Of a stretch of 58,241 bases of DNA, positions 22,446 through 38,805 are shown piece by piece; position 1 is the first letter of the stretch; every line of letters begins with the position of its first letter. The notes below the pieces were generated by a model that was given only the letters and a program-made list of their open reading frames with translations, did no database searches and was not told the origin of the DNA. Where the stretch lies: NCBI GenBank assembly GCA_036559965.1, contig DATBSD010000091.1, forward strand, positions 1-58,241. The letters run 5' to 3'. The stretch comes from Candidatus Limnocylindrales bacterium (GTDB lineage Bacteria; Chloroflexota; Limnocylindria; Limnocylindrales; CSP1-4). The position numbers were made by a program, and so were the translations under genes.

Positions 22446-22778
22446 GTGCCGACACCTGCCCGCATCCGCAACACGCTGGCCACCATCACCGCTCCGCCAG
22501 AGGAGCTGCGTGAGCTGCGCGCCTACCACAAGGCCCTTGCGGATGTCACGCGCCTGCGCATCCTCGAGCGCCTCGCGGAGTCGCCGGCGACGGTGACCGA
22601 GCTCATCGAGCACGTCGACCTGTCGCAGCCGCTCGTGAGCTGGCACCTGCGAACGCTCAAGGCCATCGGGCTCGTCGAGACCCGACGCCAGGGCCGCGAG
22701 GTCATCTGCTCGCTGCGCGCCGACGAGATCGACCGCTACACCCGCCGCGAGCGTCGCATGCTCGGGCTGGCGGGCTAG
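22446..22778 (+). CDS. ArsR/SmtB-family transcriptional regulator (no obvious metal-site Cys/His motifs)
   Basis: LADVTRLRILERLAESPATVTELIEHVDLSQPLVSWHLRTLKAIGLVETRRQGREV. There is no ELCVCDL-type motif. Lies 7 nt upstream of the PIP synthase gene on the same strand. Confidence 0.85.
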   Translation: MPTPARIRNTLATITAPPEELRELRAYHKALADVTRLRILERLAESPATVTELIEHVDLSQPLVSWHLRTLKAIGLVETRRQGREVICSLRADEIDRYTRRERRMLGLAG

Positions 22779-22785
22779 GGCGATC

Positions 22786-23442
22786 ATGAGCGACGGCTCA
22801 CTGCTCTCGAACGAGAAGCGCAACCGGTTCCGCGCCATCGTCCAGCCCTACGCGGCCGGGCTGGCAAAGCTCGGTCTGACACCCAACATGCTGACGCTCA
22901 TCGGCTTCGGCATCGCCATCGCCTCGGCTGTCCTCGCCGGCCTCGAGCTGTGGGTCGCGGCCGGCATCGTGAGCGTCGTGGCCGGGTCGTTCGACATGCT
23001 CGATGGCGCCGTGGCGCGCGCGACCGGCCAGACGTCGAAGTTCGGCGCCTTCATGGACTCGACGTTCGACCGCTGGGGCGAGGGCGTCATCTACGTCGGC
23101 ATCGTGGCCGGCGCCGCGGCCGCTGCCAACCAGGCGACGGCCATCCTGGCCGTGCTTGCCGCCGTGTGCGCCTTCATGGTCAGCTACACGCGAGCCAAGG
23201 CCGAGGGTCTCGGCTTCAGCGGCGAGGTCGGCATCGCGCCGCGACCCGAGCGCATCGTCATCCTTGGCGTCGGGCTCGTCGCCAGCGGCCTGACCGGCGG
23301 CCCGGCGGCATCGCCCTGGCTCCAGATCGCCCTCGGCGCCATCGTCGTGCTGACGACCATCACCATCATCCAGCGCATCCTTCACGTCCGCCGCCAGGCC
23401 AGCCAGGCGGCCATCGAACCAGCATCCACGTCCAGCGAGTAG
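22786..23442 (+). CDS. CDP-alcohol phosphatidyltransferase, phosphatidylinositol-phosphate synthase type (PgsA1-like)
   Basis: Family motif DMLDGAVARATGQTSKFGAFMDSTFDRWGE (D-x2-DG-x2-AR...G-x3-D-x3-D). About six TM helices. Assigned to the inositol-phosphate branch by context (ino1, PimA and acyltransferases downstream). Confidence 0.8.
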   Translation: MSDGSLLSNEKRNRFRAIVQPYAAGLAKLGLTPNMLTLIGFGIAIASAVLAGLELWVAAGIVSVVAGSFDMLDGAVARATGQTSKFGAFMDSTFDRWGEGVIYVGIVAGAAAAANQATAILAVLAAVCAFMVSYTRAKAEGLGFSGEVGIAPRPERIVILGVGLVASGLTGGPAASPWLQIALGAIVVLTTITIIQRILHVRRQASQAAIEPASTSSE

Positions 23443-23466
23443 CCAGAGGAACAGGGAGAACCCATC

Positions 23467-24702
23467 GTGAGCAAGAACGGCAAGAACGGCGCCAACGCGT
23501 CGACCGAGACCACCTGGGCCGGCGCGGGGCGCCGCGGAGACGGCAAGATCCGGGTCGCCATCGTCGGCGTCGGCAACTGCGCGTCGAGCCTCGTCCAGGG
23601 TCGCTACTACTACGAGAACGCCAAGGCCGACGACTTCGTGCCCGGCCTGATGCACGTCGACCTGGGCGGCTACCACGTCCGCGACATCGAGTTCGTGGCC
23701 GCCTTCGACGTCGACAAGAACAAGGTCGGCCGAGATCTTTCGGAGGCCATCTACACGAAGCCCAACAACACCTACGTCTTCCAGCAGGTACCGCACCTCG
23801 ACGTGCGCGTCGAGCGGGGCATGACCCACGACGGCCTGGGCAAGTACCTCAGCCAGGTCATCACCAAGGCGCCCGGCCCGACCGCCGACGTGGTCGGCAT
23901 CCTCAAGGAGCGCGAGGTCGACGTCATGGTCTCCTACCTGCCCGTCGGCAGCGAGCAGGCGACCAAGTGGTACGTCGAGCAGGCCCTGGCGGCCGGCGTC
24001 GGCTTCATCAACGCCATCCCCGTCTTCATCGGCCGGGAGCCCTACTGGCAGCGACGCTTCGCCGATCGCGGCCTGCCGGTCATCGGTGACGACATCAAGA
24101 GCCAGGTCGGCGCGACCATCAGCCACCGCGTGCTGACCCGCCTGTTCATGGATCGCGGCGTCCGCCTCGATCGGACGTACCAGCTCAACTTCGGCGGCAA
24201 CACCGACTTCCTGAACATGCTCGAGCGCGAGCGCCTGGAGTCGAAGAAGATCTCCAAGACGAACGCCGTGACGTCGATGCTCGACTACGACCTCGACCCC
24301 GACGACGTCCACGTCGGCCCCAGCGACCACGTGCCGTGGCTGCTCGACCGCAAGTGGTGCTACATCCGGATGGAGGGCACGACCTACGGCGACGTGCCGC
24401 TCAACGCCGAGCTCAAGCTCGAGGTCTGGGACAGCCCCAACAGCGCGGGCGTCATCACCGATGCCATCCGCTGCCTCAAGCTGGGCCTCGACCGCGGCCT
24501 CAAGGGCACCCTCGTGGCGCCCTCGAGCTACTTCATGAAGAGCCCGCCGATGCAGATCCACGACGACATCGCCTTCAACCGCGTCGAGGCGTTCATCCGC
24601 GGCGAGGACAGCGAGACACTCGTCGGCACGGAGATCCTGCCGACCAAGAAGGTGCGCAAGCTGGCGGGGTCGCGCGCCAAGGTCGCCGCCGGCGCCCAGT
24701 AG
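23467..24702 (+). CDS. ino1: myo-inositol-1-phosphate synthase
   Basis: The product is 411 aa. N-terminal Rossmann fold [18 protein letters not shown], plus [14 protein letters not shown] and [17 protein letters not shown], typical of bacterial/archaeal MIPS. Confidence 0.88.
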
Positions 24703-24721
24703 CGCCGGCGGCACGGTCGCG

Positions 24722-25780
24722 ATGACCGAGCAGTCGAGTGAGGAGATCGTCCGCGGCGATCGACCGGCCACGAGCCGGCCGGTGGGGGGCCTCGCGCACG
24801 GCCCCCTGAAGCGCACGTCGCAAGGGTCGTGGGTCGGCCGCGCCCTCGTCCGCCTGACCGAGCGCGCCGTCGTGCTGGGCTATCGTTTCGCCTCCTGGCT
24901 GCTCGGCGTCGTGCCGCTCGGCATCAGCCTGCCGCTCGCCGGCGGCGCGATGCGCGTGGCCTGGGTCGTCTGGCCGGCCAAGCGACGAGTCATCCTCGCC
25001 AACGCGTCGCACATCCTCGGCCGCCCGACCGACGACCCCGCCGTGCGTCGCCTCGCGGGGCGCGTCTATCAGACCTATGGTCGCTACATCGTCGAGCTCA
25101 TGCGCCTGCCGTCGCTGCCGCCGGAGGCACCGGCGGCGATGATGGATTCGCGCGGCGAGCGCGGAGTCGATGCCTTCGCCGAGCTCTGGGCGAGGCTGGA
25201 GGCCGAGGGCCGGGGCATCATCGCCCTGTCCATCCACATCGGCAGCATCGAGACGCTCATCGCCGCCATGGCCGCACGCGGCTTCCCGACGTACGGCCTG
25301 GCCGACGACTCGTCGTATCCCGAGCTCTACGCCCTGCTCCAGGCCCAGCGCAAGCGCTGGGGCGTCGACGTCTTCCCGTGGAAGCAGCTCCGTCGCGTCT
25401 ATGCCGTCCTGCGCCAGCCGGCGTTGCTCGGCCTGCTCGTCGACTGGGGCTACCGCGCCGACGGCATCCCGGTGCGGCTGTTCGGCGACTGGACGACGCT
25501 GCCGGCCGGCCCGGCCGTGCTGGCAGCCAAGACGAACGCGGTCATCGTGCCCATCGTCTGCCGTCGGCTGCCCGGCGGCCGATTCAGTGCCGAGTGGCTC
25601 GACCCGATCGAGGTCGTCGACGACGATCCGGCGACGATCAGCGCCGCCACGCAGGCCGTCGCCCACGCCCTCGAGGGGATGGTCCGGCCGGCGCCGGAGC
25701 AGTGGTACACGTTCAAGCCCATCTGGCCGACATCGGTCGATGAGGCCGCCGAGCTCGCGGCACGGGTGACGTCGTCGTGA
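24722..25780 (+). CDS. LpxL/HtrB-family lysophospholipid acyltransferase (PIM acyltransferase PatA-like), copy 1
   Basis: H-x4-E motif in LSIHIGSIE. LABLAT-family layout (Y..YGRYIVE...LLVDWGY...GPAVLA). Sits in the position that patA occupies in pgsA1-patA-pimA operons. Confidence 0.75.
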   Translation: MTEQSSEEIVRGDRPATSRPVGGLAHGPLKRTSQGSWVGRALVRLTERAVVLGYRFASWLLGVVPLGISLPLAGGAMRVAWVVWPAKRRVILANASHILGRPTDDPAVRRLAGRVYQTYGRYIVELMRLPSLPPEAPAAMMDSRGERGVDAFAELWARLEAEGRGIIALSIHIGSIETLIAAMAARGFPTYGLADDSSYPELYALLQAQRKRWGVDVFPWKQLRRVYAVLRQPALLGLLVDWGYRADGIPVRLFGDWTTLPAGPAVLAAKTNAVIVPIVCRRLPGGRFSAEWLDPIEVVDDDPATISAATQAVAHALEGMVRPAPEQWYTFKPIWPTSVDEAAELAARVTSS

Positions 25781-26715
25781 CAGCGGGGCAGCGCGGCAAG
25801 CTGGCGGCCTTGCGTGCCGTGACCTGGCTCGCCTGCCATCTGCCGGAGCGGCCGCTCCATCGCTGCTTCGCGGCCATCGGCGCCGCGCTCTACCTCGTCG
25901 ACGGCACGCGGCGCGACCTGGCGCGCCGCAATCTGACCCGGATCTGCGCCTGGCTGGTGGCCGAGGGCCGGGCCACGCCGCGGGTCGCCCGGGCGGCGCG
26001 AGACCGACGCGCGATGGACCGCCTCGTCAGGTCGGCGTTCAGCCACCACGCCCGCTACTACCTCGAGGTCCTGCGCATCTCGACCCTCACCGGCGCCTAT
26101 CTCGAGGCGCGCCTCGACTTCGGGGACTGGGAGCCCATCAGGGCAGGCTTCCGCGCCGTTACCGAGAAGCGCGGCCTGATGTACATCGGCATGCACTACG
26201 CGTCGATGGAGGTCCCCGCCCGGTACGCCATCCTCCAGACCGGGGCCATCGCCCTGACGCCCATGGAGACCGTCGACGATCCGGCCATCCAGGCCTGGGC
26301 CGAGGAGCAGCGGCAGCCCATCGGACTCGAGATCATCGACCCGGCACGTGGCGGCCGGCGCATGCTGGCCTACGCCCGCGAGGGCGGCCTGCTGACCGTC
26401 GTCGGCGACCGGCCGCTGGCCGGGACCGCGCGTCCCGTCGAGCTCTTCGGCGCGCCGGCCATGCTGCCCGTCGGCCCGGCGCTGGTCGCGGTCGAGACGG
26501 GCATCACCTGCCAGATCGCCGTCTCGCGCCGGACGGGGCTGGGCACGTATGAGATCGACCTCCACGAGCTGGCTGTCCCGGCTCCCGGCGGACCGCTGCG
26601 CGAGCGCATGGCGACCTTCATGGCCGCTGAGGCGCGTGCCATGGAAGGCATCGTCGCGGTCGCCCCCGAGCAGTGGTGGACGTGCATGTACCCGATCTGG
26701 GATGACATCCGATGA
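25777..26715 (+). CDS. LpxL/HtrB-family acyltransferase, copy 2 (paralog of the preceding gene)
   Basis: The start is a GTGA overlap with copy 1. H-x4-E motif in IGMHYASME, plus LTVVGDRP and MLPVGPALVAVETG. Confidence 0.7.
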   Translation: MTAGQRGKLAALRAVTWLACHLPERPLHRCFAAIGAALYLVDGTRRDLARRNLTRICAWLVAEGRATPRVARAARDRRAMDRLVRSAFSHHARYYLEVLRISTLTGAYLEARLDFGDWEPIRAGFRAVTEKRGLMYIGMHYASMEVPARYAILQTGAIALTPMETVDDPAIQAWAEEQRQPIGLEIIDPARGGRRMLAYAREGGLLTVVGDRPLAGTARPVELFGAPAMLPVGPALVAVETGITCQIAVSRRTGLGTYEIDLHELAVPAPGGPLRERMATFMAAEARAMEGIVAVAPEQWWTCMYPIWDDIR

Positions 26716-27527
26716 GCGCGTCAGGCCCGGGGTCGGTCGGTCGCGCCGACCTCCACATCCACTCCGCCGCGTCCGATGGCGTGGCCGGCGTTGACGCCAT
26801 CCTGCGTCATGTCCAGGAGCAGACCGACCTCGACGTCATCGCCATCACCGACCACGAGCGCATCGACGCCGCCCTGGCGGCGCAGGCCATGGCTGCCGAT
26901 CGCGGCGCACGCTTCGAGGTCATCGTCGGCGAGGAGGTCACCACTCGCAGCGGTCACCTGCTCGGCCTCTTCCTGCGTCAGCCCGTGCCGCCGCTGCGAT
27001 CGCTGCGCTGGAGCATCGCGGCCATCCACGAGCAGGGCGGCCTGGCCATCCCCGCACATCCGCTCGTGCCGGTGCCGATGAGTACGTCGGCACGTCGCAT
27101 CCGAGCGCTGCTCGACGATGCCGACCGCGCGGTCCAGCCGGACGCGCTCGAGGTCTTCAACCCGACGACCGTCGGCCGGCGCTGGCATCCGCGCGTGGTC
27201 GCCTTCGCCGCCCAGCACGGCCTGCCCGGCGTGGGCAACAGCGATGCCCACCTGCCGGCGCACATCGGCCAGGTCACGACCGGCTTCGAGGGCCACACCG
27301 CAGAGGACCTGCGCCGCGCCATCGAGGCCGGCACGACGACCTGGCAGGGCGACTTCTACCCGCCGCTCGCCCAGGTCGGCATGTTCGGGCACCAGGTCCG
27401 CAAGTACGCTCGCGACGTGCGCGACGAAGTGCGCGGCAAGCTGCTGCGTGACGGCACGGGACGTGACCTGGGCTATCCGGGTGGGCGGCAGCGACCGCCG
27501 CGCTTCGAGATCGACCGGCGGCCATGA
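26712..27527 (+). CDS. PHP-domain metal-dependent phosphoesterase
   Basis: ATGA overlaps at both ends. PHP motifs ADLHIHSAASDG, IAITDHERID, GEEVTT..GHLLG, IPAHPL and NSDAH. Confidence 0.8.
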   Translation: MSASGPGSVGRADLHIHSAASDGVAGVDAILRHVQEQTDLDVIAITDHERIDAALAAQAMAADRGARFEVIVGEEVTTRSGHLLGLFLRQPVPPLRSLRWSIAAIHEQGGLAIPAHPLVPVPMSTSARRIRALLDDADRAVQPDALEVFNPTTVGRRWHPRVVAFAAQHGLPGVGNSDAHLPAHIGQVTTGFEGHTAEDLRRAIEAGTTTWQGDFYPPLAQVGMFGHQVRKYARDVRDEVRGKLLRDGTGRDLGYPGGRQRPPRFEIDRRP

Positions 27528-28708: not shown

Positions 28709-28719
28709 ACGTCAGGTCG

Positions 28720-29550
28720 TCAGGGCCGGATGAACAGCGAGCGGGACCACTCGCCGACGTTGCCCTTCTTGTCCCGCGCCCTGATCCGATACTCGTAGAG
28801 TTGGCCCTTGAGCAGGCGGCGGACCATGCCGTCGCGGGTGGTCGCGCTGTAGACCGTCGTCCAGGCGGTCACGCCGGGGCGGCGCTTCTGGACCTGGTAG
28901 CTGGCGAAGCCGGCGGTCAGCACCTGGAGTCGGCGGTCTGCGCCCTTCCACTCGATGCGCACCCGACGCCGGGCGCCGCTGCTCGCCGTCGAGACCGTGT
29001 CGGCGCTGGCGTTGCTGTCGGTCCGGAACTTGGCCCACGCGCCGGTGCGGTCAGGGCCCTTCATGAAGATGGCCGTCCAGATCTTCTTGCCGCTCCCGTC
29101 GACCGCCAGGCCGATGCCGAAGTAGTTGTAGTCGGCGCTCGTCAGCAGCTTGTAGTGACCGGACGAGTCATGCCACTGGCGGCTGACCGCGCTGGCCGAC
29201 TCGCTCAGCGTGCCGTGCGTGTTCCAGGCGATGTTCTCGCCCGCCCCGAACCACCGGATGCCGGCGTCGCTCATGAGGTCCCAGGCCCAGTCGCCATCGG
29301 GCTCCTGGTGGGAGAAGTAGCCCTTCGAGGCCATGTCCTCCGACCGACCTCGAGCGATGGCGGCCAGCCTGGCGTCGCGGCGGAGCACGACGCGGCCGAT
29401 GGCCTGGCGCTGGTCGTTGAGCAGGCCAGCGACCTTGGCCTCGGCCCCGGCGACGGTCAGATCGTCGGCGGCAGCGACGATGGGGACGATGGTGGCGAGC
29501 AGCAGGGCGGCCAGGGCGATCGGGCCCAGGCGTCGGGCGATGGTCATCAT
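28720..29550 (-). CDS. secreted CAP/SCP (PR-1-like) domain protein with a C-terminal FN3-like beta domain
   Basis: Internal ATG of track ORF 28720..29610. Signal-like MMTIARRLGPIALAALLLATIVPIVAAA. CAP motifs MASKGYFSHQ, GENIAW and SSGHYKLL. The C-terminus (VRIEWKG...YQVQKRR.G...W..V...T......L.KGQLYEYRIRARD..GN.GEWS) looks FN3-like. Confidence 0.7.
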   Translation of the reverse strand: MMTIARRLGPIALAALLLATIVPIVAAADDLTVAGAEAKVAGLLNDQRQAIGRVVLRRDARLAAIARGRSEDMASKGYFSHQEPDGDWAWDLMSDAGIRWFGAGENIAWNTHGTLSESASAVSRQWHDSSGHYKLLTSADYNYFGIGLAVDGSGKKIWTAIFMKGPDRTGAWAKFRTDSNASADTVSTASSGARRRVRIEWKGADRRLQVLTAGFASYQVQKRRPGVTAWTTVYSATTRDGMVRRLLKGQLYEYRIRARDKKGNVGEWSRSLFIRP

Positions 29551-29700
29551 CGTCCCCTGGCGTGGCAACGGACCGGGACCTCCGGCGCGGACCGCCAGTC
29601 TCCCCGGCAACGGCCGCCGACTCCATAGCCAAGCGGTCCCATGGCCGCCCGACCCGGTGGTACGGGCGGGCGGTGCGCGGATGCACCATCGACCGAGCGC

Positions 29701-32700: not shown

Positions 32701-35253
32701 GGTCGTGGCCGCAGCGTCCGCCGCCCCAGGCACCGCCGCCTCGGCAAGGATGGTGCCGTCGGCCAGGTCGACGATGGCGACACGGCCGTCGTCGAGCACG
32801 GCGGTCAGGCGCTCGCCGGTGTCGTCGACGATCATCGCCTGGACGGGCGCGCCGAGGTCGCCGAGTCGATCGGCCGACGGCACGATGGTCGGGTCATCGC
32901 CGGCCCGGACGTCGTCGAGGTAGCGCGTGTCGAGCGTCCAGAGTCCGCCGGACATGTCGCTGATGACGAGCCGGTGGCTGGTCTCGTCGATGGCCAGCGC
33001 CTTGGGCTGGGCGCCATCGAGCTGGAGCTCGGTCACGAGCTGCCGGCCGGCGAGGTCGAACGCGCGCACACCGCCGTCACCCGAGACGTAGAGCCGGTCG
33101 CCGGCGCGGCCGGCCGTCGATGCCACGGCGTCCCAGCGTCGCTCGATGACGGCATCGCGTGGCGCGAAGCCGAGCGCGGAGGTCGCGCTGACCTCGTCGT
33201 CACCGAAGAGCACGATGCCGGCGGCCATGAGGTACTTGGCCAGGTGCGGGTGCGTGTACTCGTAGATGGCATGCGGCTCGCCGTACCGCCAGTGCTGGAG
33301 GAACTCGGTCGCGGTACGAGCGTGGTAGACCTCGTCGAAGTACATGTCGTAGGGCTCCTCGACGCGCCAGCCCCGCAGGGTCAGCGCCGAGACGAGCAGC
33401 AGCAGGGCGACGAAGACGTCGAGACGATCGATCCGGCCGGGCGGCTCACCGGCCAGCTCGGCGCTCCGATCGCGGCGTCGGAGGCCGCTGCCGACCTGGC
33501 GGCGGACGGCCGACCGAAGGCCGGCCAGCAGCGGCGCATCGTCGCCCTCGTCGTCGTGCTCCGCGGACCCTGCCGGATCTCCGCCCATGGTCACGACCGC
33601 GGCGGCACGCGTTGCGGTCGCCTCGCGGTCGGACGGGGCAAGGGCCACGGGCTCGGGTCGCGGCCGAACCTCCTCCAGCCAAGGCGCGTCGACGACCGCG
33701 CCAAGTGCTGCCAGCCCGGTCGGATCCGGCACCCGCGCAGGTTCGTCGCGCGACGGGCTGGGCGCGGTCATGGGGTCGGGCGCGTCGAGCGCGGCCGGCT
33801 CCATGTCGACGAGGGGCGTCGCGATCACGCTGGCGTCGGTCCGCAGCGTCGCCCGAACGACCTGCCAGAGCAGGAACAGGAAGACACCGGTCGTGACGAA
33901 GACGCTGCCGAGCAGGACCGGCGTCGCCCGGAAGTCCGGGCCGAAGAAGAAGTCGTCGAGGTTCGGGGTGGCCCAGATGGGCGAGCTCAGCACCGCGTGC
34001 AGGTTGACGAAGGTCGAGATGGCCAGGATGACGGTCGCCACGAGGTAGCGCCGATCGAGGATGGCGAGCAAGGGCAGCAGCGAGAAGACCGGGAACAGGT
34101 AGCGCTCGTGGACGCGCGTCGGCAGCATGAAGAAGGCGAGGCAGAGGTAGGCGGCGGCGAGCAGGATCGTCAGGCGCTCGTCGCGCCGGACGAGCAGCGC
34201 CAGCCCGACCACGAAGCCGCCCACCAGAAGCACCGTCCCGATGACGACCCCGGGCACGGGTCCGATGAGCCCGATCGTGTCCGACGGCCAGCGCCCCAGG
34301 CCCGCCTCGACCATCGCGCTCTGATCGCCCGAGCCCACCAGCGCCCAGGGGTTGAGGGCGTTGACGGTCAGGTAGGCGTACGTGCCGGCGGCCCGGCCGT
34401 ACTGGATGATGAGACCGGGCATATCGAGGCCGAACGGCGCCACGACGACGACCAACAGGCTGGCGCCGACGGCCGCCGATGAGACCAGGCGCCAGATGCC
34501 GGTCTCGTGCTCACACCATCGCCGATACCACGATGGCCCGGCCGTCACCCGCGGACCGCTGCCCGGGAGCAGCAGGTGCCGGCGCAACAGCACGACGGCC
34601 AGCAGGGGCACGAGGACCACGCCGTACTGCGGTTTCGCGAGGCCGGCCAGCACGGTCACCGCCGTGGCTGCCTCCTCGTGGCCCTCGACGAGCAGCGCGA
34701 CCATGGCCAGGGTCAGCAGCGCGCCGATCGCGTCGACCTGGCCCCAGATCGCCGAGTCGTACCAGGTCACCGGGTTGAACACGTAGAGCGCGGCGGCGAG
34801 CAGCGCCAGCTGCCCGCCTCGGGGGCGGTCCCCGAACCAGCGCATGGCCACGACGTAGAGCAGCGCGCCGGTCGCGATGTCGGCCAGGATGGGCGGCATC
34901 TTGAGCAGCGCCGTCGTCGTCGCCACGCCGGTGCCGTCGGCGGCACCGATGATCTGGCCGAGTCGCCCCAGGAACCCCAGCACGAGCATGTAGGCGGGCG
35001 GGTAGTCGGACAGGCCGGGCACGTCGTAGAAGCCCGCAGCGCCGACCTCGACCATCCGGAATGCCCAGGCGGTGAAGGTCCCAAGGTCCGACTCGAAGCC
35101 GGACTTTGGCAGCAGGACGTATGCGATGATGAGCCGGAGGGCCAGGGCGGCCAGCAGCAGGATCGTCAGGGCTGGGACGGCCGATGGCGCCCGGACCGAG
35201 CGAGTCGACGCTCCGAGGCCCCGATCGGGCGCACCCGCCCCGGGCGTCGTCAA
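29701..35253 (-). CDS. roughly 1850-aa polytopic fusion glycosyltransferase: N-terminal PIG-V/Gpi18-like GT-C module, acidic/Pro-rich linker, then a PMT (GT39) protein-O-mannosyltransferase-like GT-C module interrupted by a roughly 400-aa repeat-rich soluble insertion, plus an extended C-terminal TM region
   Basis: Lies in the 3' 5.5 kb of track ORF 29701..36072. The start is taken at TTG 35253, with GGAGG 11 nt upstream; an alternative TTG lies at 35271. There is no in-frame ATG/GTG before the first TM helix. Module 1: LPKSGFESDLGTFTAWAF...GLSDYPPAYMLVL. Module 2: YDMYFDEVYHARTA...YTHPHLAKYL, FGWRLPGVILGALTAALIYLLAR, SRIGMNDVYV, SSPWWAWPF, GNLVLFW, ATFQYHYY. Confidence 0.75.
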   Translation of the reverse strand: MTTPGAGAPDRGLGASTRSVRAPSAVPALTILLLAALALRLIIAYVLLPKSGFESDLGTFTAWAFRMVEVGAAGFYDVPGLSDYPPAYMLVLGFLGRLGQIIGAADGTGVATTTALLKMPPILADIATGALLYVVAMRWFGDRPRGGQLALLAAALYVFNPVTWYDSAIWGQVDAIGALLTLAMVALLVEGHEEAATAVTVLAGLAKPQYGVVLVPLLAVVLLRRHLLLPGSGPRVTAGPSWYRRWCEHETGIWRLVSSAAVGASLLVVVVAPFGLDMPGLIIQYGRAAGTYAYLTVNALNPWALVGSGDQSAMVEAGLGRWPSDTIGLIGPVPGVVIGTVLLVGGFVVGLALLVRRDERLTILLAAAYLCLAFFMLPTRVHERYLFPVFSLLPLLAILDRRYLVATVILAISTFVNLHAVLSSPIWATPNLDDFFFGPDFRATPVLLGSVFVTTGVFLFLLWQVVRATLRTDASVIATPLVDMEPAALDAPDPMTAPSPSRDEPARVPDPTGLAALGAVVDAPWLEEVRPRPEPVALAPSDREATATRAAAVVTMGGDPAGSAEHDDEGDDAPLLAGLRSAVRRQVGSGLRRRDRSAELAGEPPGRIDRLDVFVALLLLVSALTLRGWRVEEPYDMYFDEVYHARTATEFLQHWRYGEPHAIYEYTHPHLAKYLMAAGIVLFGDDEVSATSALGFAPRDAVIERRWDAVASTAGRAGDRLYVSGDGGVRAFDLAGRQLVTELQLDGAQPKALAIDETSHRLVISDMSGGLWTLDTRYLDDVRAGDDPTIVPSADRLGDLGAPVQAMIVDDTGERLTAVLDDGRVAIVDLADGTILAEAAVPGAADAAATTGGQRLVVDVGAVDEPGSLAETLAGILADDATRIRALLVGAEGVVTVVSNLEQDEAINIQEALDQGELPGTTIESGDLVAVAATEGLVLLDAATLARVDAIATDAPVTSVVHVEGPAEPTLYGTTGERLLRVEVKKGQAPVKRDDVWMPAAVYDLVYDSATQMLHVLGRTPDGDASTVYVVEPHANAVYADALLPAPPVAWALDADADRPSQDRQQLLTIAADGQVAVVETGRNAFGWRLPGVILGALTAALIYLLARVLIRRRTVGLAVAGLVLVDGMMFAQSRIGMNDVYVGAFIAAAYLVFALLWLGRWRGWSALLVGLPLLGVILGLALAAKWVGLYAIGGIVLLILIRSAVGRLIALAALIAMTGVLGWVAISSPTSSTPDVVGTIVVTILAMLLTGLVLHVSRAGRTVLLVGLVFAAVAAPILVSVKGNGVFVVITLAVTLLLAVAIVLRPVRWSRDEARFAVAAPVVLGIVGTLLLVAASSSLPSEGMVDPTTLLAASLGLVAVGVLAYIGLAMAASRGRGPLAPTVTIEPAGGLPAGQPPRGWLRPGWRFGLPWLWALGCVLAIPVVVYVISFAPWVELGNRWIESFPAGNEGQTLLALQIQMYEYHDNLRATHAASSPWWAWPFDLKPVWFYLGNLAEGWTAVIYDAGNLVLFWLSVPAMIWLAFTAWHRRSLALALVLIGFACQWLPWARIDRATFQYHYYTSLPFVIIGLAYFLAELWHGPSARTWLLARVSVAAMLVAVPLLWLLRVPLCAVSGVAQVNPGSQACGYVSEAFVLTERAAVSLLIVLVGIVILAWQAHTLGLRRRRSDFEATPGGRLPPGAIWLLITAVTTGVAVAIVQSRFAETPLVTAPIGDIGPYVGALLLGLPLAVAAWLVIGARDPRRFIIGTFGAMIIWFVAFQPTIAALPVPTGLARLFQTLPLSTYNYDFQFAVNTAGATETSFLSLESVALTAMVACLAGAAMYAAAVWRSGGWAPGPDEDPTEGGSATA

Positions 35254-35286
35254 CAGGCGACCGGCCTCCAAAGAACGAGCGACGAG

Positions 35287-36723
35287 GTGGAGGGGAGTAT
35301 AGCAACGGCGCCTGCCGACACCCGTTCGGCCGATCCAGCCGCTGCGGCCCCCGGCGACGGCATCGCCGGCCGCCTCGGACGCCTCGATCCCCGCTGGCTG
35401 ACGATCGGTTTCGTGGTCCTTGGCATCGTCGTCTACATCGTCAGCAACCCCAGCCGCCAGAACTTCTACAACCACTTCGTGTGGCAGGCCGACGCCTTCC
35501 TCCAGGGCCGCGCCTGGATCCCCTGGCCGCTGACCGATGGTCAGTTCCAGAACGGCTACTTCCAGGACGTCTTTCCCATCGGGGACGGGCGTGGCCTGCT
35601 GCCGTTCCCGCCACTGCCCGCCATCGCGTTGCTGCCGTTCGTGGCCGCGTTCGGGCTGGGCACGGACGCCGCTCTCGTGGCGGCCGTGCTCGGCGGCATC
35701 AACCTCGGGCTTGCCCATCGGATGGTCCGGCGCCTCACGAGCGATGCCCTGGTAGCCATCCTGGCCGCGCTCTTCTACGGCTTCGGGACGGTCGCCTGGT
35801 ATGCCGCCATGCTCGGCAGCACCTGGTTCCTGGCACATGTCGTCGCGTCGACGTTCCTGCTGCTGGCCATCACCGGCGCCCTCGACGCCGACCGCCGCTC
35901 CGCTCGCGAGGCGGCTGCCGTCGCGGCCGAGGACGAGGGCGCCGGATGGCGACGTGCCTGGCCGCCCGATGGGCGCCAGGTCATTGCCGGGCTGCTGTTC
36001 GGCATGGCGGCGGCGGCGCGCCTGACGACGCTCCTGGCGGCGCCCTTCTTCGTCTTCGTCGGCGGCGGCCACTCGGCGCTCCGTCGCGGCCTGTCAGCGG
36101 GCATCGGCGCGGTCATCCCGGTGCTCCTGCTGCTGGCCTACAACGTGGCCACCAGCGGCCAGCTCTTCCACCCCGGGTACGAGCACCTCTACCAGACCGA
36201 GTACACGCCCGTCCCGTCGGGCCTGCTCGCTCAGCTCGTGCCGGCCCTTGAGGGCATCACCTATCACCCCGGGGAGTGGGCCCTCCAGGACCCCCGCTAC
36301 GTGCCGCAGAACCTGCTCATCCTCCTGGCCTGGCTGCCCGAGGTCCACACCGAGTGCGGTTTGGCACTGCTCGACCAAGGCTGCGCGTTGATCCGACCCG
36401 ATAGGTTGGGCATGAGCGTCCTGCTCACCAGCCCCGCCTGGCTGCTGGGGCTGCCCGTCGTGCTGCGCGAGTGGCGCCGGCGGATCGTGCTCGGGTCGGC
36501 GCTCGCGGTCGGCGCGGTCACGCTCGTCAACCTCATGCACTTCAGCCAGGGCTGGGTCCAGTTCGGATATCGCTTCAGCAACGACGCCGCGCCATTCGCC
36601 CTGCTCCTCGTGACGCTCGGGCTGGCGCGCTACGGCGTGCGCTGGTGGACGGCCGGCCTGGTGCTGCTCTCGATCGTCATCAACGCCTGGGGCGTCTACT
36701 GGGGCGTCGTCCTCGGCTGGTGA
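35287..36723 (+). CDS. GT-C fold membrane glycosyltransferase (ArnT/PMT_2-like), paralog A
   Basis: GTG 35287 is an internal start of track ORF 34507..36723; the upstream part of that ORF is antisense to the giant gene. After TM1 comes the loop motif WQADAFLQGRAWIPWP...LPFPPLPAIALLPFVAAFG. The C-terminal motif VQFGYRFSNDAAPF is shared with the next gene. Confidence 0.7.
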   Translation: MEGSIATAPADTRSADPAAAAPGDGIAGRLGRLDPRWLTIGFVVLGIVVYIVSNPSRQNFYNHFVWQADAFLQGRAWIPWPLTDGQFQNGYFQDVFPIGDGRGLLPFPPLPAIALLPFVAAFGLGTDAALVAAVLGGINLGLAHRMVRRLTSDALVAILAALFYGFGTVAWYAAMLGSTWFLAHVVASTFLLLAITGALDADRRSAREAAAVAAEDEGAGWRRAWPPDGRQVIAGLLFGMAAAARLTTLLAAPFFVFVGGGHSALRRGLSAGIGAVIPVLLLLAYNVATSGQLFHPGYEHLYQTEYTPVPSGLLAQLVPALEGITYHPGEWALQDPRYVPQNLLILLAWLPEVHTECGLALLDQGCALIRPDRLGMSVLLTSPAWLLGLPVVLREWRRRIVLGSALAVGAVTLVNLMHFSQGWVQFGYRFSNDAAPFALLLVTLGLARYGVRWWTAGLVLLSIVINAWGVYWGVVLGW

Positions 36724-36729
36724 GGGGCC

Positions 36730-37968
36730 TCAGAAGCTGACGAAGTCGAGGACCGTGATGACGTAGATGCCGTAGGCGTGGACGAGGATGCCGATGAGGA
36801 TCGCGAGGCGCGCGGGCAGGGAGATGCGGCGCACGAAGAGCATGCCCAGCATGATCCACAGGATGGGCGCCACGTCGAGGCTGAACCGGTAGCCGAACTG
36901 TGTCTCGCCGACATTGCCGTGGGTCACGATGGGGATGAGCGCGCAGAGGATGGCGACCCAGCCGAAGACCACGAACGGCTCGCGCCGGCGGAGCTTGATG
37001 AGCCAGAAGTAGATCGGCGTCGTGAACGTCAGCGCGAGGCCGGTCCAGTTGGGCCGGAACCAAGGGAAGCCGTCGGCGAAGTCGAAGCCGCGGACGAAGA
37101 TCGTGTGCAGGTGCCTCGGGATGTAGCTGATGGACAGGATGCCATCGCGATACCAGGGCTCTAGGAGCACGCCGGGGATCCTTTCGTAGCCGAAGTCGAA
37201 GGGGCTGCCGAAGCGAGCGATGTTGTAGAGCGCGACGAGCACCGCCGGCACGGCCAGGCCGACGACGAACAGCCCCGCGTCGGCGAGGCGGCGCCGATCG
37301 GGGATGGCGAGGCGCGGCGCGACCTGCACCCCGGCGTACAGCGCGAGGTAGAGCGGCAGGGTCAACCCGACCGGCAAGCGTGAAGCGGCGGCCGCTCCCA
37401 GGCACAGCCCGGCAACGACCGGCCAGCGCCGATCGAGCGCCAGCCAGAGCGCGAGCAGGGACCAGAAGACACCGTTGACGCCGGCGAACAGCCACGACGT
37501 GCCCATGCCGGCCGCCCACCAGAGCACGCTGCCGACGGCGAACGCGGCCGTCAGGGAGCGTCGCGGCAGCGGCGCCACGCCCAGTCGTCCCAGGATCGTC
37601 CACAGGATGGCGACGCTCAGGCCGCCCAGGATGGCCGCCGCGTAGCCCTGGTCGAAGCCGGCCCCGAAGACGGCCACGAAAGGCAGCACCGAGATGGCCG
37701 GCATGGGCGGATAGGGCACGTACCAGCTGCCATCGGGCCGGTCGACATGCTCGATCCAGGGCATCGGCTCGATGATGTGGAGCCGGCCGTGGAGGAAGGC
37801 GTCGGCGAGCGGCACGAAGGCGTCCAGGCCGACCGGCTTGGGACCGGTCCACCAGTAGAGCAACGCGGCGCCGGCGGCGATGAGGGCGAAGGTCGTCAAC
37901 GCACGCCACGCGCTAAGGCCCTCGTCGGGTGTCGCCGAGGCGTCCGCCGCGGCGGGGGCAGCGGCCAT
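36730..37968 (-). CDS. GT-C fold membrane glycosyltransferase (ArnT/PMT_2-like), paralog B
   Basis: The product is 412 aa. Motifs: LADAFLHGRLHIIEPMPW...VPYPPMPAISVLPFVAVFG and TQFGYRFSLDVAPI. Converges on paralog A with a 6-nt gap. Confidence 0.75.
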   Translation of the reverse strand: MAAAPAAADASATPDEGLSAWRALTTFALIAAGAALLYWWTGPKPVGLDAFVPLADAFLHGRLHIIEPMPWIEHVDRPDGSWYVPYPPMPAISVLPFVAVFGAGFDQGYAAAILGGLSVAILWTILGRLGVAPLPRRSLTAAFAVGSVLWWAAGMGTSWLFAGVNGVFWSLLALWLALDRRWPVVAGLCLGAAAASRLPVGLTLPLYLALYAGVQVAPRLAIPDRRRLADAGLFVVGLAVPAVLVALYNIARFGSPFDFGYERIPGVLLEPWYRDGILSISYIPRHLHTIFVRGFDFADGFPWFRPNWTGLALTFTTPIYFWLIKLRRREPFVVFGWVAILCALIPIVTHGNVGETQFGYRFSLDVAPILWIMLGMLFVRRISLPARLAILIGILVHAYGIYVITVLDFVSF

Positions 37969-37989
37969 GGCCCCGACTATACTGCCGCG

Positions 37990-38805
37990 ATGTCCGTCCC
38001 CGCCGCCTCAACGACCACGGCGACGGCGCCTGCCCAGGATGCCGGATCGAGTCGTGTCGCCGCCCTGACCTACTTCTTCCCGGCGCACAACGAGGCCGAG
38101 AACATCGAGGCGCTCGTGGCTGAAGCGCTGGAGTCGCTGCCGGCCCTGGCCGAGACGTTCGAGATCATCGCCGTCGACGACGGCAGCAAGGACGGCACGG
38201 CGGCCATCGCCGATCGCCTCGCCGAGCAGCACCCCGGCGTCGTCCGCGTGGTCCATCACCCGGTCAACCGTGGCTACGGCGCCGCACTGCGGAGTGGTTT
38301 CGCGGCCGCCGGTCACCCGCTCATCGCCTTCACCGACGGCGACCGGCAGTTCCGCGTCGCCGACATCGGCCGCCTGCTGGCTCGGTCGGCTGCAGCCGAC
38401 GCGCCCGACGTCGTCGTCGGCTACCGCCTCCGACGCGCCGACCCGACCATCCGCCTGGTCTACGCCAGGGCATATCGCTTCTGTCTCCGGCTGTTCTACG
38501 GGCTGCCGGTGCGCGACGTGGATTGTGCCTGCAAGCTCTTCCGTCGCGAGGCCCTCGAGGGCATCCGCCTCGAGTCGGGCGGCGCCTTCCTGTCGGCCGA
38601 GCTGCTGATCAAGGTTCGCGCCCGTGGGCGCAGCATCGGCGAAGTCGGCGTGCCCCACCATCCGCGCACGGCCGGCCAGGCATCGGGCGCCGATCCGCGC
38701 GTCGTGGCGCGTGCCATCCGCGACTTCTGGCGGCTGCGGCTGCGGCTCTGGTTTCGACGTGGCCCCGCACTCGAGCGCGGCGAACCGGTGCTCGGTCCGT
38801 CCTAG
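37990..38805 (+). CDS. GT2 polyprenol-phosphate sugar synthase (Ppm1/DPM1/GtrB-like)
   Basis: Internal ATG 37990 of track ORF 37747..38805. Motifs: YFFPAHNEAENIE, IIAVDDGSKDGT, NRGYGAALRSGF, AFTDGDRQF, CACKLFRRE. Confidence 0.8.
   Translation: MSVPAASTTTATAPAQDAGSSRVAALTYFFPAHNEAENIEALVAEALESLPALAETFEIIAVDDGSKDGTAAIADRLAEQHPGVVRVVHHPVNRGYGAALRSGFAAAGHPLIAFTDGDRQFRVADIGRLLARSAAADAPDVVVGYRLRRADPTIRLVYARAYRFCLRLFYGLPVRDVDCACKLFRREALEGIRLESGGAFLSAELLIKVRARGRSIGEVGVPHHPRTAGQASGADPRVVARAIRDFWRLRLRLWFRRGPALERGEPVLGPS

What the first reader, a model, noticed from the sequence alone, without database searches (positions are those of the whole stretch)
22446..38805. 16-kb super-locus joining cytoplasmic PI/PIM synthesis to extracytoplasmic GT-C elongation: a possible lipomannan-like lipoglycan or coupled O-mannosylation system
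In mycobacteria and corynebacteria several functions are scattered around the chromosome. These are the genes for PI, the early PIMs (pgsA1, patA, pimA), the polyprenol-phosphate-mannose donor (ppm1), and the GT-C enzymes that extend PIMs to LM/LAM or O-mannosylate proteins (PimE, MptA/B/C, Emb, Pmt). Here equivalents of all of these classes lie contiguously: a regulator, PIP synthase, ino1, two acyltransferases, a phosphoesterase, PimA, a secreted CAP protein, a double GT-C fusion, two further GT-C genes and a Ppm1-like GT2. The GT-C components are not obvious one-to-one orthologs of the mycobacterial set, given the PIG-V-like module, the PMT with a propeller insert and the unnamed paralog pair. 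The product may therefore be a structurally new PI-anchored glycolipid, or a combined lipoglycan/protein-glycosylation system.
Basis: inference. Interest (0 to 1): 0.75.

Follow-up and report, generated by a model that had tools for sequence, protein, structure and literature searches.

The report
PI-mannoside operon beside GT-C glycosyltransferases
An uncultured soil Chloroflexota bacterium carries, next to its replication origin, a mycobacteria-like operon for inositol lipids and their first mannoside, beside membrane glycosyltransferases that include a giant two-enzyme fusion; whether the two halves form one pathway is unproven.

Summary
All twelve genes exist at 22446-38805, and the organism is a Ca. 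Limnocylindria (Chloroflexota) MAG, not an actinobacterium.

**Left half.** One tightly packed operon encodes ArsR, PIP synthase, Ino1, two PatA-like acyltransferases, a PHP phosphoesterase and a clear PimA orthologue (E 6e-60 to the PimA structure).

**Right half.** At least four transcription units. They encode:
- a 1850-aa fusion of an ALG6/PimE-like GT-C module with a GT39 protein-O-mannosyltransferase carrying a ~400-aa insert in loop 1;
- two paralogous proteins with no Pfam family, which AlphaFold/Foldseek place in the GT-C fold;
- a soluble DPM1/ArnC-type GT2.

**Conservation.** The arrangement recurs in about 41 of 42 species representatives with full flanks. The neighbouring dnaN-recF-dciA genes are just as conserved, so synteny alone proves little.

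**Against one pathway.**
- The halves converge.
- The PI operon's conserved operator is absent from the GT-C side.
- Unrelated genes interrupt the junction in some relatives.
- One species lacks the PI operon at this site.
- Stand-alone N-module homologues elsewhere have no PI neighbours.

**Verdict.** Partly supported. PI/acyl-PIM synthesis and polyprenyl-phosphate-sugar-dependent extracytoplasmic glycosylation are well supported. A lipomannan-like product is plausible but untested. The PHP enzyme is a candidate PIP phosphatase.

The parts
22367..22417 (+). Promoter and operator of the PI operon: TTGACA (22367-22372), TAGTAT (22391-22396), AT-rich palindrome GATTTATATAAATC (22404-22417).
   Evidence: Sequence read. 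The palindrome is unique in the window. The architecture ATCAAC-N4-TTTATATAAAT-N4-GTTGA is conserved upstream of arsR across the class, and the AT-rich core is found only there in all loci.
22446..22778 (+). ArsR/SmtB-type winged-helix regulator, first gene of the PI operon.
   Evidence: HTH_5 at 4e-15. Present in 40 of 42 full loci.
22786..23442 (+). Phosphatidylinositol-phosphate synthase (PgsA1-like).
   Evidence: CDP-OH_P_transf. NCBIfam PIPSynth at 3e-46, 157.6 bits against a cut-off of 170. Best PDB matches are PIPS of Renibacterium (2e-27) and M. tuberculosis (9e-26), with the D-x2-DG-x2-AR...G-x3-D-x3-D motif present.
23467..24702 (+). myo-Inositol-1-phosphate synthase (Ino1).
   Evidence: Inos-1-P_synth at 1e-34. 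TIGR03450 at 1e-157. 75-93% identical across the class.
24722..25780 (+). PatA-like acyltransferase 1.
   Evidence: Lip_A_acyltrans at 2.5e-27. The best NCBIfam model is PIM acyltransferase PRK07920, at 101.6 bits against a cut-off of 209. PatA structures are the only PDB hits, 2e-12 over the full length; the catalytic His is aligned and Glu200 is replaced by Asp.
25777..26715 (+). PatA-like acyltransferase 2, a paralogue of acyltransferase 1.
   Evidence: Lip_A_acyltrans at 1e-20. PRK07920 is the best model at 1.8e-22. 29% identical to acyltransferase 1. 4-nt overlaps with both neighbours.
26712..27527 (+). PHP-family metal-dependent phosphoesterase; candidate PIP phosphatase (inference).
   Evidence: PHP_C at 4.5e-14 and PHP at 1.5e-5. 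The metal-ligand motifs HIH, DHE, GEE, AHP and NSDAH are visible in the sequence. ATGA overlaps with both neighbours. Present in 41 of 42 loci. It is the only phosphatase in the operon.
27524..28708 (+). PimA orthologue (GDP-Man:PI alpha-mannosyltransferase, GT4).
   Evidence: PimA structures 4N9W/2GEJ at 6e-60 over residues 1-363; the next hit is MshA at 2e-20. PimA's PGGV, ATFH, GR..RKG and ESFGIVL.EAMAAG motifs are aligned and kept.
28720..29610 (-). Secreted CAP/YkwD-type protein with a C-terminal fn3-like domain; lineage-specific passenger.
   Evidence: CAP at 1.8e-12 and fn3 at 3e-3. Signal-peptide-like N-terminus. Present in only 6 of 42 loci.
33844..35253 (-). Giant protein, residues 1-470: N-terminal GT-C module.
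   Evidence: AlphaFold model with pTM 0.86. Foldseek best hits are ALG6 6SNH (TM 0.61/0.64), PIG-M, ALG3 and PimE. Sub-threshold Alg6_Alg8 in 14 of 19 orthologues, GT87 in 8 of 19, PIG-U in 6 of 19. Invariant RVHERY; D56 nearly invariant in loop 1.
33433..33843 (-). Giant protein, residues 471-607: Ala/Pro/Arg/Asp-rich linker, predicted cytoplasmic.
   Evidence: Composition. Poorly conserved in the alignment. Arg-rich on both flanks of the adjoining helices (positive-inside inference).
33214..33432 (-). Giant protein, residues 608-680: first helix of the PMT module and loop-1 catalytic motif YFDEVYHARTA.
   Evidence: Sequence. D640, E641, Y643 and H644 are invariant in 14 orthologues. Weak PMT match to profile positions 3-64.
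31999..33213 (-). Giant protein, residues 681-1085: soluble insert in loop 1 with beta-propeller-like repeats.
   Evidence: Repeats of the type 'DRLYV..DGGVRAFDL' and 'DGRVAIVDLADG'. Weak WD40 (Prp19) profile hit at E 0.3. Not modelled.
29701..31998 (-). Giant protein, residues 1086-1850: PMT (GT39) core with the C-terminal 4-TM domain.
   Evidence: PMT at 8e-13 (48.9 bits, cut-off 22.7) and PMT_4TMC at 2e-12 (47.3 bits, cut-off 32.4). The profile hits yeast Pmt1 6P25 at 2e-5 and Pmt4.
35287..36723 (+). memA: GT-C-fold membrane protein with no Pfam family.
   Evidence: No Pfam family. All homologues are named 'hypothetical'. AlphaFold pTM 0.89. Every Foldseek hit with high probability is a GT-C enzyme: STT3, PimE, ALG12, PIG-M, Pmt4. 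Present in 37 of 42 loci.
36730..37968 (-). memB: paralogue of memA in a variable slot.
   Evidence: 29% identical to memA, E 6e-24. A true orthologue is present in only the closest relatives (3 of 42). Elsewhere the slot holds a TMEM260-like (PF11028) GT-C or nothing.
37990..38805 (+). Soluble GT2, polyprenyl-phosphate sugar synthase type (Ppm1/DPM1-like).
   Evidence: Glycos_transf_2 at 5.5e-27. NCBIfam PpgS, halophile Dol-P-hexose transferase and ArnC at about 1e-15, all below cut-off. PDB: ArnC 8e-14, Pyrococcus DPMS 6.5e-10, GtrB. No TM segment. Present in 41 of 42 loci.

Best explanation
The locus is a conserved cell-envelope glycoconjugate island of Ca. Limnocylindria. It consists of two neighbouring but separately transcribed modules.

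**Module 1 (22446-28708, one operon).** It is autoregulated by its ArsR protein through an AT-rich operator and works on the cytoplasmic face.
1. Ino1 makes inositol-1-phosphate.
2. The PIP synthase joins it to CDP-diacylglycerol.
3. The PHP phosphoesterase removes the phosphate to give PI (inferred).
4. PimA adds the first mannose from GDP-mannose.
5. The two PatA-like enzymes add one or two acyl chains (the second target is inferred).

**Module 2 (29701-38805, several units).** It works on the outer face.
- The soluble GT2 charges polyprenyl phosphate with a sugar, most likely mannose.
- The GT39 half of the 1850-aa fusion uses this donor to O-mannosylate secreted or membrane proteins. Its loop-1 insert acts as an acceptor-binding domain.
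- The fused ALG6/PimE-like N-module and the interchangeable memA, memB or TMEM260-like GT-Cs add further sugars.
- Whether those further sugars go onto O-mannose or onto flipped acyl-PIM is unresolved.

**Shown:** gene content, folds, family similarities, conservation, separate promoters.
**Inferred:** substrates, sugar identity, the role of the PHP protein, and any link between the modules.
For: **Module 1**
- PIPS, Ino1, PimA and PatA similarities.
- 4-nt start/stop overlaps from acyltransferase 1 through PimA.
- A conserved promoter and operator found only upstream of arsR.
- The genes are present in 41 of 42 loci.
- PI synthesis through PIP needs a phosphatase. Such an enzyme has been identified only in Bacteroides, where it is PgpA-like (PMC9246714). 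The PHP protein is the only phosphoesterase in the operon and keeps its metal ligands.

**Module 2**
- The PMT and PMT_4TMC domains score above their gathering thresholds, and the DE motif is invariant.
- The GT-C fold of the N-module and of memA is modelled with confidence.
- The GT2 is closest to ArnC, DPMS and GtrB.
- GT2 stays next to the giant gene even where memA is lost, as in L029 and L087.
- The fusion is intact in all 80 species loci, including those where the first match looked partial.

**Separation of the two modules**
- They are convergent.
- They share no operator.
- Unrelated insertions sit at the junction in some relatives.
- L044 lacks the PI operon at this site.
Against: - No biochemical data exist for any of these proteins, and the organism is uncultured.
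- The sugar carried by the GT2 product is unknown, and all NCBIfam equivalog scores are below cut-off.
- GT39 enzymes with a ~400-aa loop-1 insert and a fused second GT-C have not been characterised, so a non-protein acceptor cannot be excluded.
- No second cytoplasmic mannosyltransferase (PimB') was found in the window. The cytoplasmic product may therefore stop at acyl-PIM1, or PimB' lies elsewhere.
- The near-universal adjacency of the two modules (41 of 42) would also fit a single pathway.
Confidence: 0.5

Rival explanations
1. Single pathway. Acyl-PIM made by the operon is flipped and then extended by the N-module, memA, memB or TMEM260-like GT-Cs, and possibly the PMT-like module. They use polyprenyl-phosphate-mannose from the GT2 and build a PI-anchored lipomannan-like lipoglycan.
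For: - Both halves are adjacent in 41 of 42 species with full flanks.
- The logic matches the mycobacterial PIM to LM route.
- The N-module's fold is close to ALG6 and PimE. PimE's own closest structural relative is ALG6 (PMC12041525).
- Sub-threshold GT87 (PimE family) hits occur in 8 of 19 N-modules and 4 of 29 memA relatives.
- No PimB' is present, so periplasmic GT-Cs could take over early.
- Cultured Chloroflexota (Dictyobacter) have PI, unidentified glycolipids and mannose (PMC12453558).
Against: - The flanking dnaN-recF-dciA-pp2c-bfn genes are equally syntenic, so adjacency is not specific.
- The units are convergent and share no operator.
- The junction tolerates an IS element and unrelated genes.
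- L044 keeps the GT-C half without the PI operon at this site.
- Stand-alone N-module homologues elsewhere have no PI neighbours.
- No GT-C here reaches the GT87 threshold.
- The only GT-C that can be assigned to a family is GT39, a protein-modifying family.
Confidence: 0.27
2. The right half glycosylates neither proteins nor PIM. It acts on another envelope acceptor, such as a wall polysaccharide, an S-layer glycan or a lipid in the manner of ArnT, possibly with a sugar other than mannose. Its position next to the PI operon is historical accident in a rearrangement-poor origin region.
For: - The GT2 scores highest against ArnC and PpgS-type enzymes, which carry non-mannose sugars.
- The slot next to memA varies between species, as in polysaccharide-diversity loci.
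- The whole ~30-kb origin region is collinear across the class.
- The loop-1 insert is unlike any characterised PMT.
Against: - PMT plus PMT_4TMC is the GT39 signature, and both score above threshold.
- The DE motif is invariant.
- All characterised GT39 enzymes use Dol-P-Man or polyprenyl-P-Man and protein Ser/Thr acceptors (established knowledge).
Confidence: 0.15
3. The left operon does not make PIM. The GT4 would glycosylate inositol-phosphate, as MshA does, and the PHP protein would dephosphorylate the product, giving a soluble inositol glycoside or thiol precursor.
For: - Ino1 matches the 'mycothiol_INO1' model best.
- MshA is among the GT4 hits.
- The phosphatase that follows MshA is also unidentified in actinobacteria (own knowledge).
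Against: - PimA scores 6e-60 over the full length, against 2e-20 for a partial MshA match.
- A PIP synthase and two PatA-like lipid acyltransferases are translationally coupled in the same operon.
- No MshB, MshC or MshD homologues occur in the window.
Confidence: 0.05

Closest known systems
Mycobacterial/corynebacterial early PIM operon pgsA1-patA-pimA (Rv2612c-Rv2610c), plus ino1
   Same: - PIP synthase, PatA-type acyltransferase and PimA are encoded together.
- PimA aligns full-length with the catalytic motifs kept.
- PIPS is closest to actinobacterial PIPS structures.
- PatA structures are the only PDB matches of acyltransferase 1.
   Different: - The host is Chloroflexota.
- ino1, an ArsR regulator, a second PatA paralogue and a PHP phosphoesterase are inside the operon.
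- There are no HIT or Nudix genes and no PimB' nearby.
- The PatA-like and PIPS scores fall below the NCBIfam equivalog cut-offs.
Actinobacterial protein O-mannosylation (Ppm1 + Pmt, GT39)
   Same: - A soluble GT2 of the polyprenyl-phosphate-sugar-synthase type sits near a PMT + PMT_4TMC enzyme with the loop-1 DE motif.
   Different: - The PMT is fused behind a complete second GT-C module.
- It carries a ~400-aa insert in loop 1.
- Eukaryotic PMTs instead carry MIR domains in loop 5, and actinobacterial Pmt has no insert (own knowledge).
PPM-dependent GT-C mannosyltransferases of PIM/LM/LAM synthesis (PimE, MptA/B/C; GT87 and relatives)
   Same: - GT-C fold, with PimE among the top structural matches of both the N-module and memA.
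- Weak GT87 profile hits in some orthologues.
- Genomic proximity to PimA.
   Different: - No member reaches the GT87 threshold.
- The N-module is closer to ALG6 (TM 0.61) than to PimE (TM 0.46).
- memA and memB have no Pfam family.
- The N-module and memA families are not detectably related to each other.
Eukaryotic GPI-anchor assembly (PIG-M, PIG-V, PIG-B, DPM1, PIG-W)
   Same: - The concept matches: a PI-based lipid made on the cytoplasmic face and Dol-P-Man-dependent GT-C enzymes on the other face.
- PIG-M and PIG-U are among the structural matches.
- JGI names the giant protein 'Gpi18-like'.
   Different: - There is no hit to the PIG-V Pfam model.
- There is no GlcNAc-PI step.
- The resemblance is at fold level only.
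Bacteroides inositol-lipid cluster (MIPS BT_1526, PIPS BT_1523, PIP phosphatase BT_1525)
   Same: - MIPS, PIPS and a phosphatase are encoded together for PI synthesis through PIP (PMC9246714).
- The PIPS here also hits the BT1523 model at 5e-33.
   Different: - The phosphatase here is PHP-family, not PgpA-family.
- The downstream genes lead to mannosides, not sphingolipids.

Membership tests
PimA (GT4 GDP-Man:PI alpha-1,2-mannosyltransferase) | Full-length similarity to characterised PimA, well above other GT4 families. | tested here: met
   4N9W/2GEJ at 6e-60 over residues 1-363; the next family (MshA) scores 2e-20.
PimA (GT4 GDP-Man:PI alpha-1,2-mannosyltransferase) | Conserved nucleotide-sugar and catalytic residues: the Gly loop, His118, Arg196/Lys202 and the E-x7-E motif. 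| tested here: met
   PGGV, ATFH, GRF.EQRKG and ESFGIVLLEAMAAG align with the PimA residues. The residue roles are recalled from the literature.
PimA (GT4 GDP-Man:PI alpha-1,2-mannosyltransferase) | Transfers mannose to PI. | not testable with these tools
   Needs an enzyme assay or lipid analysis.
Bacterial PIP synthase (PgsA1) | CDP-alcohol phosphotransferase motif and closest similarity to PIPS rather than to PgsA, PssA or Cls. | tested here: met
   The motif is present. PIPS structures score 2e-27 to 2e-22, against 5e-4 for PssA. NCBIfam PIPSynth gives 157.6 bits, just under its cut-off of 170.
PatA (PIM acyltransferase, LPLAT superfamily) | Best similarity to PatA, and the catalytic His / acidic dyad. 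| tested here: inconclusive
   PatA structures are the only PDB hits (2e-12). His is aligned and Glu200 is replaced by Asp. PRK07920 is the best model but gives 101.6 and 79.8 bits against a cut-off of 209.
Complete mycobacterial-type cytoplasmic PIM2 pathway | A second cytoplasmic GT4 (PimB'). | tested here: not met
   There is only one GT4 in the 58-kb window. The rest of the genome was not available.
GT39 protein O-mannosyltransferase (PMT/Pmt) | PMT domain plus the C-terminal 4-TM domain, both above Pfam thresholds. | tested here: met
   PMT 48.9 bits (cut-off 22.7) and PMT_4TMC 47.3 bits (cut-off 32.4). The profile hits Pmt1 and Pmt4 structures.
GT39 protein O-mannosyltransferase (PMT/Pmt) | Acidic DE motif in the first extracytoplasmic loop. 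| tested here: met
   YFDEVYH at residues 638-644. D640 and E641 are invariant in 14 orthologues.
GT39 protein O-mannosyltransferase (PMT/Pmt) | Protein Ser/Thr acceptor. | not testable with these tools
   Needs glycoproteomics or an in-vitro assay.
GT87 (PimE and related PPM-dependent mannosyltransferases) | Match to PF09594 at or above threshold. | tested here: not met
   The window's N-module and memA do not hit it. Only 8 of 19 and 4 of 29 orthologues give weak hits (best 8e-5 and 2e-4).
GT-C superfamily (fold level) | Multi-helix GT-C core with a long first outer loop, recognisable by structure comparison. | tested here: met
   N-module: pTM 0.86, ALG6 TM 0.61/0.64. memA: pTM 0.89, and all high-probability hits are GT-C enzymes.
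PIG-V/Gpi18 (GT76) | Match to the PIG-V Pfam model (PF04188, accession recalled from memory) or to a PIG-V structure. | tested here: not met
   No hit, even at E up to 10 for the window protein and up to 1 for 19 orthologues. No PIG-V structure appeared among the fold matches. Only JGI's name says 'Gpi18-like'.
Polyprenyl-phosphate mannose synthase (Ppm1/DPM1) | GT2 catalytic domain of the Dol-P/Und-P sugar synthase type. | tested here: met
   GT2 at 5.5e-27. ArnC 8e-14, Pyrococcus DPMS 6.5e-10 and GtrB 4.5e-7.
Polyprenyl-phosphate mannose synthase (Ppm1/DPM1) | Specificity for GDP-mannose. | not testable with these tools
   All NCBIfam equivalog hits are far below cut-off and name different sugars.
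PIP phosphatase of the Bacteroides type (BT_1525, PgpA family) | PgpA-family fold. | tested here: not met
   The operon's phosphoesterase is PHP/PHP_C. It could only be a functional analogue.

The most novel reading that the evidence does not exclude
Limnocylindria make a PI-anchored, acylated mannoglycolipid (a lipomannan analogue) outside the Actinobacteria, using GT-C enzymes that are not orthologous to PimE or the Mpt enzymes. Within the same locus, the PHP protein would be the long-missing non-Bacteroides PIP phosphatase. The second PatA paralogue would be the inositol acyltransferase that is still unidentified in mycobacteria.
Probability: 0.22. Interest if true: 0.8.

Novelty: new variant of a known kind. 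Interest (0 to 1): 0.5.

Why it matters
- **PIMs outside actinobacteria.** PIMs and their biosynthetic operon are regarded as an actinobacterial hallmark. A clear PimA/PatA/PIPS operon conserved across hundreds of species of an abundant, uncultured soil and freshwater Chloroflexota class would extend PI-mannoside biology to another phylum.
- **Candidates for unassigned steps.** A PHP-family PIP phosphatase is one candidate. That step is identified so far only in Bacteroides (PMC9246714). A second PatA-type acyltransferase is another, because the inositol acyltransferase is unknown in mycobacteria (PMC12041525).
- **A new architecture.** The 1850-aa fusion of two GT-C enzymes, with a large loop-1 insert in the PMT half, is uncharacterised as far as I know (no targeted literature search was run). 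So are the memA/memB GT-C proteins, which have no Pfam family. Both could inform how O-mannosylation or lipoglycan elongation is organised in monoderm bacteria.

Tried and rejected
- **Sequence search of the giant protein against the PDB** found nothing. A profile was needed.
- **The memA profile against the PDB** found nothing. Only the fold search placed it.
- **The homologue lists for the giant protein, PHP and memA** were saturated with close Limnocylindria relatives. They could not show distant contexts. The single genome scan had the same limit: its best 80 loci are all one class.
A sub-alignment cut from A3 failed because MAFFT scattered the tail of the short query. The single N-module sequence was used instead.
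- **Cluster look-up of ten stand-alone N-module homologues** returned no organism names.
- **Apparent gene fusions** (PHP-GT4 and acyltransferase-acyltransferase in L009, acyltransferase-PHP in L006) were not used as evidence. L009 also has split dnaN and recF genes, which suggests assembly indels.
- **Apparent unfused PMT modules** in L068, L085 and L086 were rejected. Their ORFs are continuous.
- **A shared ArsR operator near the GT-C genes** was searched for and not found.
- **Homology between the N-module and memA** was tested and rejected.
- **Literature searches** for PIM or PimA in Chloroflexi or Chloroflexota found nothing relevant. The library covers open-access papers only.

Full report
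**What is there**

The window has about 70% G+C, so mechanical ORFs overlap heavily. I used third-position GC to choose frames and inspected candidate starts.

The region 22446-38805 holds twelve genes. On the + strand, seven genes are packed as one operon:
- ArsR-type regulator, 22446-22778
- PIP synthase, 22786-23442
- Ino1, 23467-24702
- Two Lip_A-type acyltransferases, 24722-25780 and 25777-26715
- PHP/PHP_C phosphoesterase, 26712-27527
- GT4, 27524-28708

The last four genes overlap by 4 nt.

Converging on this operon from the - strand are a secreted CAP+fn3 protein (28720-29610) and an 1850-aa membrane protein (29701-35253). Then follow:
- memA (35287-36723, +), which diverges from the giant gene with 33 nt between the two start codons;
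- memB (36730-37968, -), which converges on memA;
- a GT2 (37990-38805, +), which diverges from memB with 21 nt between the two start codons.

Database proteins identical to my calls exist for the giant protein (1850 aa), memA (478 aa) and the PHP protein (271 aa).

**Where it comes from**

The window proteins occur only on metagenome contigs. Homologues of the giant protein are named Ca. Limnocylindrales, Limnocylindria or Chloroflexota, including the MAG CSP1-4. This is not an actinobacterium.

The locus lies beside the replication-origin genes. A BFN nuclease, a PP2C-like protein, DciA, recF, dnaN and dnaA follow on one side. AHSA1, MFS, CorA, sortase and a complex I operon lie on the other.

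**Left half**

- The PIP synthase carries the CDP-alcohol motif. It is closest to the PIPS structures of Renibacterium (2e-27) and M. tuberculosis (9e-26).
- Ino1 matches TIGR03450 at 1e-157.
- The GT4 aligns over its full length with PimA structures at 6e-60. The next family, MshA, scores 2e-20. PimA's Gly loop, His, Arg/Lys and E-x7-E motifs are kept.
- For acyltransferase 1, PatA structures are the only PDB hits (2e-12), with the catalytic His aligned. For both acyltransferases, the PIM acyltransferase model is the best NCBIfam match, although below its cut-off.
- The PHP protein keeps its metal-ligand motifs. It has only weak, N-terminal PDB matches.

PI synthesis through PIP needs a phosphatase. 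That enzyme has been identified only in Bacteroides, as a PgpA-like protein (PMC9246714). The PHP protein is translationally coupled inside the operon and present in 41 of 42 loci. It is the obvious candidate, but this is inference.

A second PatA paralogue could add the second acyl chain. In mycobacteria the inositol acyltransferase is still unknown (PMC12041525). This too is inference.

No PimB' is present in the window.

**Right half**

The C-terminal part of the giant protein scores above threshold for PMT and PMT_4TMC, and its profile finds yeast Pmt1 and Pmt4. The first helix of that module (residues 608-626) is followed by an invariant YFDEVYH motif. A soluble insert of about 400 aa comes next, with blade-like repeats and a weak WD40 hit. 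I did not model this insert.

Residues 1-470 have no Pfam family. The AlphaFold model (pTM 0.86) is a GT-C fold, closest to:
- ALG6 (TM 0.61/0.64)
- PIG-M
- ALG3
- PimE
- PIG-U

Across 19 orthologues, sub-threshold profile hits go to Alg6_Alg8 (14), GT87 (8) and PIG-U (6). None go to PIG-V.

memA and memB are paralogues with no Pfam family. All their homologues are named 'hypothetical'. The memA model (pTM 0.89) matches only GT-C enzymes at high probability. The N-module and memA families are not detectably related to each other.

The GT2 has no membrane segment. It is closest to ArnC, Pyrococcus Dol-P-Man synthase and GtrB. This places it in the polyprenyl-phosphate sugar synthase class. The sugar itself cannot be read from sequence.

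The positive-inside distribution of Arg around residues 1-27, 471-475 and 580-607 fits a topology in which both catalytic first loops face outward. This is inference from the sequence.

**Is the block a unit?**

Five homologues of the giant protein on long contigs, 42-70% identical, show the same order. The genome scan found at least 494 species genomes with a relative. The best 80 are all Chloroflexota MAGs.

I mapped all window proteins onto these loci. Among the 42 loci with full flanks:

| Gene(s) | Loci with the gene |
|---|---|
| PI-operon genes from PIPS to PimA | 41 |
| arsR | 40 |
| GT2 | 41 |
| memA | 37 |
| True memB orthologue | 3 |
| CAP | 6 |
| dnaN, recF, dciA, pp2c, bfn | 41-42 |
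| MFS | 34 |
| CorA | 18 |

So the block is conserved, but no more than the replication genes beside it. Synteny within this one class cannot separate function from inheritance.

The memB slot is filled in most species by a TMEM260-like (PF11028) GT-C, or it is empty. In five species memA is missing. In two of these (L029, L087) GT2 abuts the giant gene. In L069 a TMEM260-like gene abuts it instead, and GT2 is absent from the locus.

**Evidence bearing on coupling**

- The PI operon has a TTGACA-N18-TAGTAT promoter followed by the palindrome GATTTATATAAATC. The element is conserved upstream of arsR across the class.
- In all loci, the AT-rich core occurs only at arsR: 78 of 80 hits lie within 200 nt of it, and none lies near a GT-C gene.
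- The junction between the giant gene and pimA holds unrelated genes in three species. L039 has an SDR plus an unknown ORF, L041 has a GNAT and a luciferase-like oxygenase, and L065 has an IS110 transposase.
- In L044 a NiFe hydrogenase cluster and an ABC transporter follow the giant gene, and no PI operon lies within 10 kb.
- The N-module family is large, with 3922 cluster representatives, many of them stand-alone proteins of 450-530 aa.
- Two stand-alone members were examined. One sits in a pafBC-tatAC context next to BacA. The other sits next to a PMT_2-like protein. Neither has PI genes nearby.
- A 2390-aa variant of the giant protein sits on a short contig without GT2, memA or PimA in view.

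Together these points show that the halves are separately regulated and separable. They do not exclude a shared pathway, given the 41 of 42 adjacency.

**Conclusion**

The best-supported reading is two neighbouring modules of envelope mannosylation.
- A cytoplasmic PI to acyl-PIM operon.
- An extracytoplasmic, polyprenyl-phosphate-sugar-dependent GT-C set built around a GT39 fusion. This fusion most likely O-mannosylates proteins.

The acceptor of the additional GT-Cs is unresolved. It could be O-mannose chains or flipped PIM.

The lipomannan-like single-pathway reading remains a live rival, at about one in four.

Cultured Chloroflexota such as Dictyobacter contain PI, unidentified glycolipids and mannose (PMC12453558), so inositol lipids in the phylum are not new. 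I found no report of PIMs or PimA in Chloroflexota in the searchable library.

I rate the finding a new variant of known systems, of moderate interest. Three elements are concrete and testable: the PHP candidate PIP phosphatase, the double GT-C fusion, and the memA/memB proteins that have no Pfam family.

Noticed in passing
window 21939-22313 (- strand): A second ArsR-like HTH gene starts at the ATG at 22301 on the - strand (MVQYQSHFDASFAALSDATRRGVLEQL...). It lies upstream of the AHSA1/SRPBCC gene (21455-22099). A near-perfect 12+12 palindrome, ATACTGAACCAT|ATAGTTCAGTAT, spans its start codon (22290-22313). My GC3 filter missed the gene. It is divergent from the PI operon's own arsR.
   Followed up: partly
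window 37960-37995: The memB and GT2 start codons are 21 nt apart on opposite strands. Both sit 7-8 nt downstream of one palindromic -10-like box (TATAGT / TATACT), which suggests two leaderless divergent transcripts sharing one element. By contrast, the giant gene has a GGAGG upstream of its start, and that start is only 33 nt from memA's.
   Followed up: no
window 38802-46325: The origin-side gene order is dnaA-dnaN-recF-DciA-(754-aa PP2C-like protein)-BFN nuclease. It is conserved in essentially all 42 full loci. The PP2C-like protein has almost no Pfam coverage (one weak PP2C stretch). Some relatives (L069, L093) have a rhomboid protease inserted before BFN.
   Followed up: partly
L044:15200-25000: In this species representative (Chloroflexota MAG DEBay_Sum019D_L_G_81), a NiFe hydrogenase cluster (Fe-S/NAD-binding subunit, large subunit, HycI protease) and a sugar ABC transporter follow the giant gene where the PI operon normally lies.
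   Followed up: partly
L094:1333-8505: A 2390-aa variant of the double GT-C fusion has about 860 extra residues between the N-module and the PMT module. It sits on a 9.5-kb contig without the usual neighbours.
   Followed up: no
L009 and L006 (long-read MAG contigs): Gene calls show PHP-GT4 and acyltransferase-acyltransferase fusions in L009, and an acyltransferase-PHP fusion in L006. L009 also has split dnaN and recF genes. The fusions are therefore probably assembly indels at the 4-nt gene overlaps, not real Rosetta-stone fusions.
   Followed up: partly
window 6782-9385: Within the complex I (nuo) operon, an 867-aa protein combines a 2Fe-2S domain, a pyridine-nucleotide-disulphide oxidoreductase (FAD/NAD) domain and 4Fe-4S domains. 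It occupies the position where NuoG would be expected.
   Followed up: no
window, whole: GC skew changes sign at about 28 kb and about 46 kb, in step with the switch of coding strand. The coding strand is C-rich. The skew here therefore tracks transcription direction rather than marking the origin.
   Followed up: no
L091:10001-12521: A stand-alone homologue of the N-module (528 aa, 33% identity) lies next to a BacA/UppP undecaprenyl-diphosphatase gene, in a pafB/pafC-tatA-tatC type neighbourhood. This fits a polyprenyl-phosphate-dependent role for the family outside Chloroflexota.
   Followed up: partly
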